Origin: Anolis carolinensis
Taxonomy: Eukaryota
Assembly (NCBI RefSeq): GCF_035594765.1
Contig: NC_085841.1
Coordinates: forward strand, 52,373,636-52,437,635
DNA: 64,000 nt
Reading direction: 5' to 3'
Position numbers: made by a program
Part shown: piece by piece, positions 36,401 to 42,400 of the stretch
How the letters are laid out: every line of letters begins with the position of its first letter
Numbering within the stretch: the stretch's first letter is position 1

Positions 36401-39400
36401 TTCCTCAGTTCTGTTATCCTTCCTTATCCTCCAGATCCTCCTGATATATATATACTCCCTCCAGACATATTTTCCCTCCATATTTTAAGGACGGTTTACA
36501 GATACTTTCTACATTACTTGTGAAAAACTGCAATTTGAAATTCTAAACATTATTGTTACTGCAGAATTGGTTCTTATTTAAGAGGAAATTTCAGTGACCA
36601 CCTCCTAATGGCCACCATTTTATATTTTCCTTAACAGTATTAAGAGAGAGAGTTTTGTCCTCCCCAAGTTAGTATATTTGGAGACTCAGCTATTTGAACA
36701 ATGTGTCTAGGATTTTCCACCCTGTATGTTAGTCTTCCTTTCTGCAGTTCTTCAAGCATGCTTTCATTAAATTATAACTTTTCTAAATGAAAAGTCCCAG
36801 CCTTTTACATCTCTCTTTATTTGGACACATTTTCCATTCCTGTAATCCATTTGTTGAAACCCTTCTATTTCTATGATAGTGTGATCATAATTAAACTCAG
36901 CCTTGCATGTATAACAGTGATTAATATAATAAGCTATAATGTTGTCTGTCTTCTCCCATGAGTGGTTACTGTTAATTTAAATCTCTAGCTTCAGAAAGTA
37001 CAGCATTGTATAGCATTAAAACAGAAACAAAACCCACACAATATATTTTGGCATCACTGGAGTCAAGACATTCCCTCTTTCCTTCAGTTATTTTTGGACT
37101 GCAACCACTTGATACACTAATTGAGTGGAAAAGAACAACTACATTTCTCAACAAATGAAATGTTTAGTATTGATATACATTCAATGAAAAAGGTGGCTAA
37201 GCAAATTTGCTTCTAAATATGTCTGGCTAGACTTCCAGTTAGCAGAGAAGCTGTGAAATTTCAAACACTGGAGGGTTTTTTTGGATGGAATCCTAAAGTA
37301 TGGTTTAATATTATGTGAATGAGACTAATGAAGCCTATGGTTGCCAGGTTTCAAAATAGCAATAACTCAAAGCAAATTTTATGATGCATAGGGCTGATAA
37401 TTAGGAAGTGGTGGTAAAAAAAGTCTTTTAGGTGCGACAGGCAGTTTTAAATAGCAGGCCTCTGTGCTGAGTTCTTCCTTCTCTGGTATGAATCATGCAA
37501 CTAAGGCTGGATTAACACTGCCACATAATCCAGTTTCAGAATGCAGATTAATCTCATTGACCTGGATTATATGGCAGCGCGGATTCATATAATCCAGTTC
37601 AATGCAGTTAATCTGAATTCTGAAACTGAATTATATGGCAGTGTAAATCCAGCCTTAGTTGCATGATTCTTCGATTCAAGTTACGCATCTGCACTTTGTG
37701 CATCTGAGTTATTTCTAATCACCTGATGGTCATCTGTGCATATAAATCTGTTTGCTGAAGTAACTTTTCATGCATCCTATTAAGGGGATCGATCCCCCAA
37801 TTTATGTGATAATAAAATTGAGTGACCTTTAAGGTGCCACAAGACAATGGTTCTAAACTATTAAACCGAGTTCTTCCTTCTCTGGCCTTGCTATTACCAT
37901 GTAGGACATGAAGCTATTCCACAGCAGTTGCACAAACACAAAATATTACTGAAAAAAACTGGCTTGGGAATAGCAAGGGCAAAAGAAGAGAAGAGGCAGT
38001 GATTCTTGCCTACTGACAAAGAACTGAATGGCCTCTTGTGGGTTGGCAGCTACTGACAGGTTTTTTTCCATCAATAGTGGAGGACAGATTAATTATGGGT
38101 AGGAGTTAGAGCAGTAACAGGATGTGTATGGCATCATGCAATAGGGACCATTAATAAAGGTGCTGGTCCTGCTTCACTGCCAATTTGCCTCCCTCATGTG
38201 GTAACTTATAATGTTACAAAGAAGTTTTTTTTAGAAATTACGGTGTACATTCTCTTCATGAACCTTGCCTAACAATTAGCAAATCATTAGCTGTACAACA
38301 TAGAGAAGGCTCATTAGGAAATCTTGCAACGAGGGGGGATTTGAAACCCAGCACTTTAGCTTCTACATTATGGTGATTCTGATAATTACTTATTGTTACA
38401 CTAACAAGTAACAAAATTACCAGGCATTATGCTATTTTACCAAAAAATAGTTTTGCGGAACAGGTAATGTTGTTATTTGTAATGTGCTAATTCTAAGATG
38501 GAGCCCCCAGAGGTGCAGTGGGTTAAACTGTTGAACCGCTGAACTTGTTTACCAAAAGGTCGGTAGTTTGAATCTCGCTTTTAGCCCCAGCTTCTGCCAA
38601 CCTAGCAGAATGTGAGTAGATCAATAGGTACCGCTCCAATGGGAAGGTAATGGTGCTAGATGCAGTCATGCTGGCCACATGACCTTGAAGGTGTCTACGG
38701 AAAACTCTGGGTCTTTGTCTTAGAAATTGAGATGAGCACATACCCCCAGAGTTGGACACGACTGGACTTAATTTCAGGGGAAAACCTTTACCTTTACCTA
38801 CTTAATTATAAGATCTTTTTTCACACATAATGTTAAACTGTAGTTAATTGCAAATGGAAACCATTGTCTTCCTTGCTTTCAATATGTGAGCAAAAGTTTC
38901 TGCAGTAAACTATTATCTACCATTCTGTGAATAAGCCTGGATGATCCTATGTAACAACATCACTAAATGTAGCCACTGACTCCTAGCAATGGAATTGTGA
39001 TCTTGCACATTAATGGTTGTAAACTTCTTTGCTTCAGGAAATGCCAAAGTTGAGAGCTACTATAGCACCCATAACACCTGCATGCAGCATGCAAGCCAGA
39101 TGTTTAGGGACAGGGCTTTGCTCATAATCTATTGATCTAACCAACATCCCAGCTCCAATCACTGCTGCAAAGGTTGTACCTATTGCCAACCAGGAACCCC
39201 TCATCATTCAACTTGACTCTTCTGGGGGGTCCCCTGCTCATCTGAGCTGCTTGGTATACAGCAAGAATCGTAGGTGGCCTGTCTACTGTGGCCATGTGTG
39301 GACCAAGTGAGAAGTTTCTGAACATGGGAGCATCTTTGGGGGTTGGCTTTGGCTTCGTACTTGCATCACCGGTTGGATCCATGTTCTTTCCTCTGACATC

Positions 39401-42400
39401 TGCCCTTGGTGCAGGCCTTTATTCTGTGGCTGTTTATGGTGAATTGGTTCTTTTTAGTTTGTTCCTGCTCTACAATACTCAGAAAGTTGTGAAACGTGCA
39501 GAAACTCTACCAGTGTATGGTGTAGGACTGCAAAAGTATGACCCCATCAACTCATGTATGGGCATTATGTGGATACTCTCAACATCTTCATCAGGGTGGC
39601 CACCATGCTTGCTGGTGGGGGTGGCATGAAGAAGAAGTAGAGGGCGGCATCTTCTGGCAGGCTGTAATGATGGGTCATCAAACACTTTAGCTTGTCTGCT
39701 TGGTGCGTAATAGTGAATAAAACTATTGTGTACAAGCCAAAAAAAAAGGGGGGGGGGAATGCCAAAGTTGGGGGGTGAACATTATTCCCAATTTTTTCTA
39801 ATATCTATTTACAAGATAAAAAGCACCTTAGCCTTTAGGCATACATCTCCAGCCAGTAAATGTTTGGATTCCCTGCTTCATAAACATCTACAACTTTGAT
39901 TTGAAGGGCTTATAAATGTGCCACAAGCAAGGTAGAAATATATTAATGCTGTTATATAAATGAATGTCATATATTTATGTTGTCCTTTTGTGATTTTTAA
40001 CAAAATATATAGTCTCCTGTAGGCGACTTAGAAGAGCACTCCTAGGCTGAAATGTCTTGGGCTTTGAACATCTTTTAGCATCCTAAAACATATCCTATTT
40101 TTTCCATTTTTGCTTTTCATATAGCCAAAGAGCCAAGCAACCAGGATTGTGAAGGTATGCTTTCTGTGTGATAATTTTTCAAATGCTTTTGTCAGTCATG
40201 GAGACTCACTGGGTTACTTTGGGCAAATCACACATTTTCAGCCCCTGAAAACCCTGTAATTGCATTGCCTTAGGGTCCCCATATATCGGAAATGACACTG
40301 AGCCACACAACAACAAAAGCAAATAACACTTGCAAAATTATCACTCCAGTTTTGTTTCAGCCATCAGTGAAACAGTATTAGTTAAAAATATGCAAAGGAT
40401 TTTTTAAGGTATGCATATCCATGTCAATCCTCCACCTTCAACATTTTGGACTGAAGAGAACTGACACTTGGCACAATGAGACAGGCTAGTTTTACAATAG
40501 AGATATTTTGATATTTACCATTAAACCATGTCACCCATTTTGTTCAGTCTTGAGCAGGTGTTAATCTGTTTTGATAAAGAAGCTGAGGATTTGGCTTTTC
40601 TCCTAATCAGAGCCATAGGCAGCCATGAAGCTATTCCAGCCTTTTCCTTCGTAAATTGGGTATGAATATTTAAGAGGAAACACTGCCATCTCTTTTTACT
40701 GCAATCCAAGCCAATGCATGTCTCCCTTGGCAATGCTAGTATCCCTCTTTTTTAAAATCACAGTAACATGGAGGGGACTTGCTCATTTTACTATTTAAAA
40801 GGATAGGGAATTCAGAACAGACCAGGAGGAAAGGAAGGATAAGTTGCTTACTTTGCCCTTGTGTCTTAATGACTGTACAGATACTATAACCCTTCAGTGG
40901 TCTTGCTTGGCAAGGAGAGTCCTGATTAATCATCTCACATTTTCAGATGCTTTAAAAATGCCCCAGTTCCTCTTTCCTCCTCCCATTTCCCTCACCTTGT
41001 TCTCAGCTCACTTTAATTTGCTGCAATCTAGGTACTAACTGCAAAAGTAGTTTGTTCTCATTTTATTCATGATGCCAATGGCCTCAATTCTAGCACTGTA
41101 ACTTCACACCTTTACAGGATTTGCAGGATGTTTTTATGTTTGGTTTCTTTATTTTTATTTATTTATTAACCATCTGTTTATTCCCTCTCAGCTGTAATGG
41201 CTCCCAAAGTGCTATGCAACAGATAGAAATGCTTTAAAAGCAAATAAAACCAATAAAAACAAGTAAAGCAATCCAAAAGCTAATCCTGATTTTAGAAACC
41301 ATAGATCATGCAAAATAATATATACTTCCCAAAATTTCTTCTGATTAAAATTGGGACATCATGACAAAGCAGTATCAAAGTGTGCTCCAGATGGCAAACC
41401 TAATGACGAAAAACACCTGAGTCTGTTGAGAAGGGCAAGACTCTGCTGCCTCTTTTCCCCACACAAAATTAAATGAATCAAACTATTTTTGCTCTTTGAT
41501 TTCAATTTATAGGAATTGAAGTAAGCTGAAGTCAAAGGGAGATAAGTGATAAGTGGAGACAGAAACTGGGACCCCTTCTATATTGCTATATAATCCCGAT
41601 TATCAGATTGGACAATCCACATTATCTGCTTTGAAATGAGTTATATTAGTCTACACCAGGGGTCCCCAAACTAAGGCCTGGGGGCCGGATGCGGTCCATC
41701 GAAGCCATTTATCTGGCCCCCACGGCACAAGGGCAGAAGGGGGTTGGGCTAAATGACCCAAGGGGTCTCTTCTCTTACAACCATTATTATTATTGACACA
41801 ACGACGTTGTATGACACAGCAAACAAGATAGGTATGCTGGATTTCATTTCACAAAATCACAAGTCGAACACTTCCCAAGTGTCTAGGACTGTGTGATGTA
41901 TTTTCGGATGATGCGTGCAGATCCCAGTAAGGTGGCCTTTTGCAGTTGGCAGATCGTGATTTTGTCAATGTCTATTGTTTCCAAATGCCGGCTGAGATCT
42001 TTTGGCACGGCACCCACTGTGCCCATCACCACCGGGACCACCTGCACTGGTTTCTGCCAGAGTCTTTGAAGTTCAATCTTGAGGTCCTGATAGCAGCTGA
42101 GTTTTTCCTGTTGTTTTTCATCTATGCGGCTGTTACCTGGTATGGCAACATCAATGATCCAAACCTTGTTCTTTTCCACAACTGTGATGTCTGGTGTGTT
42201 GTGTTCCAGAACTTTGTCAGTCTGGATTCGGAAGTCCCACAGTATCTTTGCGTGTTCATTTTCCACAACCTTTGCAGGTTTGTGATCCCACCAGTTCTTT
42301 ACTGCAGGGAGGTGGTACTTGAGGCATAAGTTCCAATGAATCATTTGGGCCACATAGTTGTGCCTCTGTTTGTAGTCTGTCTGTGCAATTTTCTTACAGC

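What the first reader, a model, noticed from the sequence alone, without database searches (positions are those of the whole stretch)
39040..39770. GHITM retrocopy with a near-seamless 5' inversion (twin priming) in a squamate
Seen: within one 13-bp TSD the first ~160 bp are GHITM coding sequence in antisense (MMRGSW..VMGAIVA). The rest resumes in sense at almost the next residue (LTLLGGPLL) and runs through stop, 3' UTR, AATAAA and A-tail. Known: this is the twin-priming signature of L1-mediated retrotransposition, best documented in mammals. Inference: a lizard LINE mobilised a host mRNA in trans with twin priming. The target (GA/AATG) fits the mammalian TT/AAAA consensus poorly. The ORF track does not show the inverted GHITM frame.
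Basis: partly seen in the sequence, partly recalled or inferred. Interest (0 to 1): 0.7.

Follow-up and report, generated by a model that had tools for sequence, protein, structure and literature searches.

The report
Twin-primed GHITM pseudogene in a lizard
This is a dead, intron-less copy of the GHITM gene in a lizard genome whose front part went in backwards at insertion, a known by-product of LINE-driven retrocopying described so far mainly in mammals.

Summary
An exact 13-nt direct repeat (39040-39052 and 39758-39770) encloses a 705-bp insert. The insert holds GHITM codons 156-206 on the minus strand (39207..39055). Five filler bases follow. GHITM codons 208 to the stop then run on the plus strand (39213-39640), followed by a 98-nt 3' UTR, AATAAA and an A9 tail. 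Only the Pro207 codon is missing between the two pieces.

The copy is dead. It has an in-frame TGA, a 1-nt deletion and no first 155 codons. The best named relatives are squamate GHITM proteins. A neighbouring LINE is 95% identical to an Anolis carolinensis protein.

That an L1-type LINE did it is inferred from the A tail and the repeat length. No L1 was seen in the window.

The G10 run is unexplained.

Twin-primed processed pseudogenes are well known in humans. I found no report for a lizard in the searchable library. It is a new member of a known kind, of modest interest.

The parts
39040..39052 (+). 5' copy of the target-site duplication, AATGCCAAAGTTG
   Evidence: Exact 13-nt repeat found only here and at 39758-39770. 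It is 16 nt with one mismatch, counted from 39037.
39053..39054 (.). Two bases (AG) at the 5' junction of uncertain origin. The G could be templated by the first C of the Pro207 codon. The A fits neither the expected CCN codon nor the target.
   Evidence: Read against the alignment ends.
39055..39207 (-). Inverted GHITM coding segment, residues 156-206 (MMRGSW...VMGAIVA), made from the second, internal primer
   Evidence: 46 of 51 identical to Elgaria GHITM, E 7e-30. tblastn E 1e-23 to 4e-24 with 3 of 4 lizard proteins. The fourth, Phrynosoma, is mis-modelled in this stretch.
39208..39212 (.). Filler TCAAC at the inversion junction. The last C could be the third base of the Pro207 codon.
   Evidence: It lies between the ends of the two alignments. 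It is the reverse complement of GTTGA at 39049-39053, and it is palindromic with the next bases.
39213..39640 (+). Sense GHITM coding segment, residues 208 to the stop. It carries an in-frame TGA at 39243-39245 and a 1-nt deletion at 39565-39566. The stop codon TAG is at 39638-39640.
   Evidence: Pfam Bax1-I, E 2.3e-11, 44.3 bits against a cut-off of 34.1. Identity to lizard GHITM is 86-90% over 118 residues. The tail piece is 22 of 24 identical to Phrynosoma.
39641..39738 (+). 3' UTR of the retrocopied mRNA, with AATAAA at 39716-39721, 17 nt before the A run
   Evidence: Read. Its identity with the parent UTR could not be checked.
39739..39747 (+). A9 remnant of the poly(A) tail
39748..39757 (+). 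G10 run between the tail and the 3' repeat. It is absent from the inferred empty site and is unexplained.
   Evidence: It holds the only AAAAAGGGGG word in the window.
39758..39770 (+). 3' copy of the target-site duplication

Best explanation
This is a processed pseudogene of GHITM (TMBIM5, Bax1-I family) in an anole-like lizard. It was made in one target-primed reverse transcription event with twin priming.

Proposed steps:
1. A LINE endonuclease nicked the bottom strand at 5'-GGCATT/TCCTGA-3'. That end primed cDNA synthesis from the 3' end of a polyadenylated GHITM mRNA. This gave the sense piece, 39213 to the tail.
2. The top strand was cut 13 nt downstream, after ...AAAGTTG.
3. The freed top-strand 3' end primed a second cDNA on the same mRNA at the Pro207 codon. 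That cDNA ran 5'-ward to codon 156 and gave the inverted piece, 39055-39207.
4. The first cDNA stopped where the second primer sat.
5. The two cDNA ends were joined by end-joining, with 4-5 filler bases and the loss of 1-3 mRNA bases.

Shown: the anatomy, the adjacent mRNA coordinates, the single repeat pair, and the decay of the copy.

Inferred: the order of events, and that the enzyme came from an L1-clade LINE. I put L1 at about 0.7, given twin priming. The copy was non-functional from the start and has decayed since.
For: - One exact 13-nt repeat pair encloses both pieces. The whole window holds only 7 rows (6 places) of 13-mers repeated directly at spacings of 300-1500 nt. By my arithmetic from that count, chance placement within 25 nt of both homology ends is about 2e-4.
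- The inverted piece ends at residue 206 and the sense piece starts at residue 208 of the same protein.
- The mRNA-3' end of the inverted piece faces the 5' repeat, as twin priming requires.
- The inverted piece has no T run or tail of its own.
- The two pieces share no inverted repeat, so this is not a fold-back duplication.
- Both pieces carry similar loads of private substitutions, 3 of 51 and 10 of 118 residues by my count. That fits one age.
- The AATAAA, the 17-nt spacing and the A run mark a processed mRNA 3' end.
- The 13-16 nt repeat matches the 10-20 nt range of 5'-inverted L1 inserts (PMC4245944 passages).
- In humans, 9 of 42 somatic and 3 of 23 other processed pseudogenes carry such inversions (PMC3996531; PMC12016303).
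Against: - Microhomology at the two junctions, a hallmark of twin priming, could therefore not be measured.
- From the retrocopy alone, the 5' junction shows at most one matching base and an unexplained A at 39053.
- In human and chimpanzee, only 28 of 605 5'-inverted L1s lack microhomology at the 5' junction (PMC2912911 passages).
- The nick site, ATT/TC, fits TTTT/AA poorly.
- A G10 run lies where the first cDNA should begin directly on the A tail.
- No L1 ORF1 or AP-endonuclease domain was found in the window. Only 5 of 64 long ORFs and 0 of 300 short ORFs had any Pfam family, and all 5 hits were RVT_1.
- In cell assays, 5' inversions arose with human L1 in human cells but not in chicken DT40 cells. 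The mechanism therefore depends on host and element (PMC4245944 passages).
- The assembly itself cannot be checked here.
Confidence: 0.85

Rival explanations
1. Ordinary 5'-truncated retrocopy (from codon 156) followed by a later DNA-level inversion of its first ~155 bp.
For: The end product would look the same. The filler and the lost Pro codon at 39208-39212 would fit end-joining after breakage.
Against: One breakpoint would have to fall within 2 nt of the insert/repeat boundary while leaving the 13-nt repeat intact and direct. No inverted repeats lie at the two breakpoints to drive an inversion. Twin priming produces this layout routinely in humans.
Confidence: 0.05
2. Assembly or polishing artefact. 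A chimeric join created the inversion, and perhaps the G10 run too.
For: Nothing in the window speaks for it except the odd G10 homopolymer. The reads could not be inspected.
Against: An artefact would not be expected to place abutting mRNA coordinates inside one intact repeat pair. Fold-back chimeras give palindromic duplicates, and none is present. Both pieces show similar decay.
Confidence: 0.04
3. Two independent GHITM retrocopy fragments inserted head to head.
For: None beyond the presence of two orientations.
Against: There is one repeat pair only, and the inverted piece has no tail. The mRNA coordinates abut to within one codon.
Confidence: 0.01
4. Twin priming did occur, but the enzyme came from a LINE clade other than L1, or from L1 acting on an unusual, G-ended template. 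Other clades would be RTE, CR1, L2 or R4. All five clades are reported as active in Anolis (PMC5389967 passages).
For: The poor fit to the L1 nick consensus and the G10 run between tail and repeat. The LINEs actually seen in the window are not L1.
Against: Non-L1 vertebrate LINEs are described as needing their own 3' ends ('stringent' type). Poly(A) RNAs are mobilised by L1-type elements (PMC3747384 passages). Retrocopy numbers track L1 copy numbers across chordates (PMC3136929 passages). A zebrafish L2 gives ~5-nt repeats and no inversions (PMC4245944).
Confidence: 0.15

Closest known systems
5'-inverted (twin-primed) processed pseudogenes of humans
   Same: One repeat pair, a 3' sense part with poly(A), a 5' part inverted and taken from the adjacent upstream mRNA stretch, no duplicated sequence, and a 5' truncation. 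Frequencies are 9 of 42 (PMC3996531) and 3 of 23 (PMC12016303).
   Different: The host is a squamate. The nick site is ATT/TC rather than TTTT/AA. A G10 run follows the A tail. The inversion junction carries 4-5 filler bases where the human cases usually show 1-4 bp of microhomology.
[quoted passage not shown]
   Same: Same proposed mechanism and same repeat-length class. 639 of 2068 human- and chimpanzee-specific L1 inserts are of this type (PMC2912911 passages).
   Different: Here the template is a host mRNA mobilised in trans, not the LINE's own RNA. Microhomology could not be measured.
Anolis carolinensis retrocopies
   Same: Lizards do carry processed copies of host genes. The count is 404 retrocopies, 187 of them pseudogenes (PMC3136929, Table 1 as seen in passages).
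   Different: The passages I saw in that survey say nothing on 5' inversions. Whether this GHITM copy is among the 404 was not checked, because its supplements were not consulted.
GHITM / TMBIM5 parent gene (Bax1-I family, PF01027)
   Same: 86-90% protein identity to lizard GHITM over the sense piece, with the Pfam domain above the cut-off.
   Different: It lacks residues 1-155 and has residues 156-206 inverted. It also carries a premature stop and a frameshift, so it cannot encode the protein.

Membership tests
Processed pseudogene (retrocopy made by target-primed reverse transcription) | Continuous match to the mature mRNA, with no introns | tested here: inconclusive
   193 codons align without gaps other than the junction and a 1-nt deletion. 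No GHITM gene structure could be fetched. That the parent has introns in this stretch is recalled knowledge. It is hinted at only by two automated gene models (Phrynosoma, Phrynocephalus) that break inside residues 162-198.
Processed pseudogene (retrocopy made by target-primed reverse transcription) | Polyadenylation signal and A tail at the 3' end | tested here: met
   AATAAA at 39716-39721 and A9 at 39739-47. The tail is short and is followed by G10.
Processed pseudogene (retrocopy made by target-primed reverse transcription) | Target-site duplication flanking the whole insert | tested here: met
   13 of 13 nt, unique in the window.
Processed pseudogene (retrocopy made by target-primed reverse transcription) | Lies away from the parent gene | tested here: met
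   tblastn of 4 lizard GHITM proteins finds no other GHITM-like stretch in the 64 kb. All other hits have E above 0.9.
Twin-priming 5' inversion | Inverted 5' piece and sense 3' piece inside one duplication, with the inverted piece taken from the mRNA just upstream of the sense piece | tested here: met
   Residues 156-206 on the minus strand and 208-end on the plus strand. Only the Pro207 codon is missing.
Twin-priming 5' inversion | The mRNA-3' end of the inverted piece abuts the 5' duplication (primer) | tested here: met
   Residue 206 is at 39055-39057, 2 nt from the repeat end at 39052.
Twin-priming 5' inversion | Microhomology between the primer end and the mRNA, and at the inversion junction | not testable with these tools
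   This needs the species' GHITM mRNA nucleotide sequence, and no eukaryotic DNA collection was open. From the retrocopy alone there is at most 1 nt at the 5' junction, and filler rather than overlap at the inner junction.
Twin-priming 5' inversion | Duplication length of 10-20 nt | tested here: met
   13 nt exact, or 16 nt with one mismatch. The range is taken from PMC4245944 passages.
L1-clade LINE as the mobilising element | Nick at a TTTT/AA-like site | tested here: not met
   The bottom strand reads GGCATT/TCCTGA. The consensus is that of mammalian L1. The preference of lizard L1 is unknown to me.
L1-clade LINE as the mobilising element | Presence of L1 with matching insertion features in the same genome | not testable with these tools
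   No L1 ORF1 or AP-endonuclease domain was found in the window. L1 is reported in Anolis (PMC3787681 and PMC5389967 passages).
GHITM / TMBIM5 (Bax1-I, PF01027) | Domain match above the curated cut-off, and best hits named GHITM | tested here: met
   44.3 bits against 34.1. Named hits in the 120 listed are GHITM from squamates downwards in identity. The short inverted and C-terminal pieces gave no Pfam hit on their own, so 1 of 3 pieces matched. Both align to GHITM pairwise.

The most novel reading that the evidence does not exclude
The G10 run is a true footprint of the insertion event. On this reading, the lizard enzyme began reverse transcription on a template whose A tail ended in about ten G residues, or after adding about ten C residues to a primer that ends in only two T residues, at a site unlike the mammalian L1 consensus. 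It then carried out twin priming. That would mean squamate L1-type machinery has a looser requirement for the template 3' end and for the target than mammalian L1. It would also mean that 5' inversion is not confined to the human-L1/human-cell combination seen in cell assays.
Probability: 0.12. Interest if true: 0.55.

Novelty: new member of a known kind. Interest (0 to 1): 0.3.

Why it matters
Twin priming has been worked out on mammalian L1. In cell assays, 5' inversions appeared with human L1 in human cells but not in chicken cells, and not with a zebrafish L2. Their formation therefore depends on both element and host (PMC4245944 passages).

A clean, single-event, 5'-inverted retrocopy in a lizard is natural evidence that the same pathway runs in a squamate germ line with native enzymes acting in trans on a host mRNA. 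It suggests a simple genome-wide survey of squamate retrocopies and L1s for inversions, repeat lengths, nick sites and tail composition. By itself it is one decayed pseudogene with no expected function.

Tried and rejected
- Cluster look-up: I asked for the members of the GHITM clusters to find the species' own protein. 
- Rfam: 0 matches over the whole window.
- Pfam on open frames: I looked for host exons or L1 parts. I scanned 64 of the 71 frames of 90 aa or more. The 7 left out were three overlapping the retrocopy and four inside the (ATT)n tract at 45361-45936. Five frames matched, all RVT_1. Of the 300 frames of 55-89 aa, 0 had a family.
- Second G-run case: I asked whether the T7G11 run at 29491-29508, next to a 13-mer repeated at 30515, is another 'G run beside a duplication'. 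The layout does not fit a tailed insert, so I rejected it.
- Other long G/C runs: the runs at 54987 and 55209 belong to the inverted ends of a MITE-like insert. They are not the same phenomenon.
- TENT4 mixed tailing as the source of G10: the review passages describe single G residues, not runs. A search for guanylation with retrotransposition and LINE-1 gave 4 papers, none on this point by title or abstract.
- Papers not held: Ostertag and Kazazian 2001 and Novick et al. 2009.
- Wasted search: one literature search was too loosely framed and returned nothing useful.
- The 2026 preprint on vertebrate processed pseudogenes has no passage on squamates, twin priming or inversions.
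Full report
**What is there**

The window is vertebrate-like DNA: 39.8% G+C, CpG observed/expected 0.23, and one N run at 51154-51302, which I left alone. At the reported place, the 13-mer AATGCCAAAGTTG occurs at 39040-39052 and 39758-39770 and nowhere else in the window. That is 2 matches at up to one mismatch, against 0.30 expected from shuffles. With one mismatch the repeat is 16 nt long.

The 705 bases between the repeats are GHITM sequence in two orientations. I ran tblastn with four lizard GHITM proteins against the window. 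It places:
- residues 156-206 (Elgaria numbering) on the minus strand at 39207..39055;
- residues 208-325 on the plus strand at 39213-39566;
- the last residues in the +1 frame up to 39613.

All other hits in the 64 kb have E above 0.9, so the parent gene is not here.

In pairwise comparison, the inverted piece is 46 of 51 identical to Elgaria GHITM (E 7e-30). The C-terminal piece is 22 of 31 identical (E 8e-12). Pfam finds Bax1-I in the long sense piece (E 2.3e-11, 44.3 bits against a cut-off of 34.1). The two short pieces gave nothing on their own, so 1 of 3 pieces matched.

I searched and compared the pieces one by one.

**Whose gene, whose genome**

A database search with the sense piece gave 489 proteins at E up to 1e-10 among 1147 candidates, of which 120 were listed. 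By identity the best are squamate GHITM proteins: Phrynosoma 90%, Elgaria 89%, and Pogona, Phrynocephalus and Lacerta 86%. Tuatara, fishes and birds follow at about 79-80%, and snakes at 72-75%. The three rows with the best E-values are long insect or unnamed proteins at only 57-63% identity. I take them to rank high by length, and they are not the closest relatives.

Segment by segment, the copy shares several states with the iguanian Phrynosoma.

A LINE reverse-transcriptase frame 2 kb away (41886-43781, minus strand) is 95% identical over 99% of its length to an Anolis carolinensis protein. The next full-length hits are 65% or less. The window is therefore from an anole or a close relative, and 'squamate' is confirmed.

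**Fine anatomy**

| Coordinates | Feature |
|---|---|
| 39040-39052 | 5' repeat |
| 39053-39054 | AG, of uncertain origin |
| 39055-39207 | inverted codons 206 down to 156 |
| 39208-39212 | filler TCAAC |
| 39213 onward | sense codons from 208 |
| 39243-39245 | in-frame TGA where all orthologues have Arg (a CGA-to-TGA type change) |
| 39565-39566 | one T lost from the run, shifting the frame |
| 39638-39640 | stop codon TAG |
| 39641-39738 | 98-nt 3' UTR |
| 39716-39721 | AATAAA, 17 nt before the tail |
| 39739-39747 | A9 |
| 39748-39757 | G10 |
| 39758-39770 | 3' repeat |

Only the Pro207 codon is missing between the two pieces. If that codon is CCC in the parent, the G at 39054 and the C at 39212 could be its first and third bases. 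This cannot be settled without the parent nucleotide sequence.

**More than chance?**

In the whole window, 13-mers repeated directly at spacings of 300-1500 nt occur in 7 rows (6 places, one of them a GT microsatellite), including this pair. That is about 7e-8 per position and spacing. A pair falling within 25 nt of both ends of the GHITM homology is expected about 2e-4 times (my arithmetic).

The two pieces abut in protein coordinates to within one codon out of about 350. They share no inverted repeat, so the arrangement is not a fold-back duplication.

Private substitutions are residues seen in none of the lizard orthologues. There are 3 in 51 residues of the inverted piece, 10 in 118 of the first sense piece and 1-2 in 24 of the last piece (my count). 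The loads are similar, as expected for one event.

**Mechanism**

The layout is what twin priming predicts.
1. The bottom strand was nicked at 5'-GGCATT/TCCTGA-3', and that end primed cDNA synthesis from the mRNA 3' end.
2. The top strand was cut 13 nt downstream, after AAAGTTG.
3. That 3' end primed a second cDNA inside the same mRNA, at the Pro207 codon, which ran to codon 156.
4. The first cDNA stopped where the second primer sat.
5. The two free cDNA ends were joined.

The anatomy is shown. The order of events is inferred from the established model, as summarised in PMC2912911, PMC3996531 and PMC4245944. All three were read as passages only. The founding paper is not held.

**Rivals**

- A later inversion would need one breakpoint within 2 nt of the insert boundary while leaving the repeat intact. 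No inverted repeats lie at the breakpoints.
- Two independent inserts are excluded by the single repeat pair, the missing second tail and the abutting coordinates.
- Misassembly cannot be excluded without reads, but it would not be expected to produce this precise layout.

**Which enzyme**

The A tail after a proper polyadenylation signal and the 13-16 nt duplication point to an L1-type element:
- L1-type elements use poly(A) RNAs in trans, whereas other vertebrate LINE clades are described as needing their own 3' ends (PMC3747384 passages).
- Retrocopy numbers follow L1 copy numbers across chordates (PMC3136929 passages).
- A zebrafish L2 gives ~5-nt duplications and no inversions (PMC4245944).

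This attribution is inference. The window itself holds three reverse-transcriptase-bearing LINE remnants. None has an L1 ORF1 or AP-endonuclease match. Five of 64 long frames hit RVT_1, and 0 of 300 short frames hit anything.

**Unexplained details**

The G10 run lies exactly where the first cDNA should start on the A tail. It is absent from the inferred empty site...TTCAGGA|AATGCC. The word AAAAAGGGGG occurs only here in the window, although such a 10-mer alone is not rare by chance: 31 of 100 shuffles hold at least one. The other long G or C runs belong to other features.

Known mixed tailing adds single G residues, not runs (PMC7988573 passages). The remaining possibilities are:
- a G-ended template;
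- untemplated C addition to the primer;
- a template switch;
- a sequence error.

The filler TCAAC is the reverse complement of GTTGA across the 5' junction, and the match is 7 nt (TCAACTT) when the next bases are included. TCAA-C-TTGA is also a palindrome with the start of the sense piece. For a random filler, each coincidence has a chance of about 1%. A shared 7-mer between two such stretches has about 2%. These observations were made after the fact. They hint at template switching or snap-back during joining, no more.

**Age and function**

There are about 14-15 private amino-acid changes in 193 codons, plus one stop and one frameshift. If the decay is neutral, this suggests roughly 3% nucleotide divergence since insertion (my estimate). 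Some of these changes may belong to the unseen parent lineage. That corresponds to the order of ten million years or more under an assumed vertebrate neutral rate.

The copy lacks codons 1-155, has no start codon and has its 5' part inverted. It was non-functional from the start.

**Novelty**

Twin-primed processed pseudogenes are well documented in humans: 9 of 42 in one study and 3 of 23 in another. Lizards are known to carry retrocopies: 404 in Anolis, 187 of them pseudogenes.

In the searchable library:
- 'twin priming' with 'lizard' gives 3 papers;
- 'twin priming' with 'Anolis' gives 4 papers;
- 'twin priming' with 'squamat' gives 0 papers.

In the three common to both lists that I opened, the term appears only in a reference list or refers to mammalian snRNA chimeras. 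The fourth, on nematodes, I saw only in the listing. So I found no report of a twin-primed insert in a squamate. Subscription papers and supplements were not searched, and the Anolis LINE survey of 2009 is not held.

The finding is a new member of a known kind. It has some added value because 5' inversion was found to depend on host and element in cell assays.

**Limits**

- No eukaryotic DNA collection was available. The parent mRNA, the empty site and orthologous loci therefore stayed unchecked.
The prokaryotic genome collection was not used because it cannot bear on this locus.
- No supplementary files were consulted.

Noticed in passing
window 39748-39757: A G10 run lies between the A9 tail and the 3' target-site duplication of the retrocopy. 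It is absent from the inferred empty site and is unexplained.
   Followed up: partly
window 39208-39212 and 39049-39053: The 5-nt filler TCAAC at the inversion junction is the reverse complement of GTTGA at the 5' junction (7 nt with the adjoining bases). It is also palindromic with the start of the sense piece. Each coincidence has a chance of about 1-2%.
   Followed up: partly
window 41886-45117, minus strand: A nearly intact LINE with two long frames (461 and 632 aa, one frameshift). It has RVT_1 and zf-RVT, no AP-endonuclease match, and a weak PD-(D/E)XK-like hit after the RT. It has (AAT)n at its 3' end and (ATT)n tracts at 45450-45691. It looks R4/Dong-like (name recalled). It is 95% identical to an Anolis carolinensis protein.
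   Followed up: partly
one search hit list (P0129): A protein annotated in the scorpion Centruroides sculpturatus is 83% identical over 75% of the lizard LINE frame. This is far closer than any other non-Anolis hit, and suggests contamination or horizontal transfer.
   Followed up: no
window 54966-55259: A CR1-like reverse-transcriptase element (53673-55671, plus strand) is split by a 274-bp MITE-like insert (54976-55249). The insert has a 10-nt duplication, ACTGTGTCCA, and G14 and C15 runs inside its inverted ends.
   Followed up: partly
window 37469-37885: A 381-bp insert (37487-37867) is flanked by an exact 18-nt duplication, GAGTTCTTCCTTCTCTGG. It has no A tail and carries internal inverted repeats.
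   Followed up: no
window 21768-23082, minus strand: A decayed LINE reverse-transcriptase remnant spread over three frames.
   Followed up: no
proteins P0007 and P0006: The deposited GHITM models of Phrynosoma platyrhinos and Phrynocephalus forsythii deviate from all other lizards within residues ~162-198. These are probably exon mis-predictions in those annotations.
   Followed up: no
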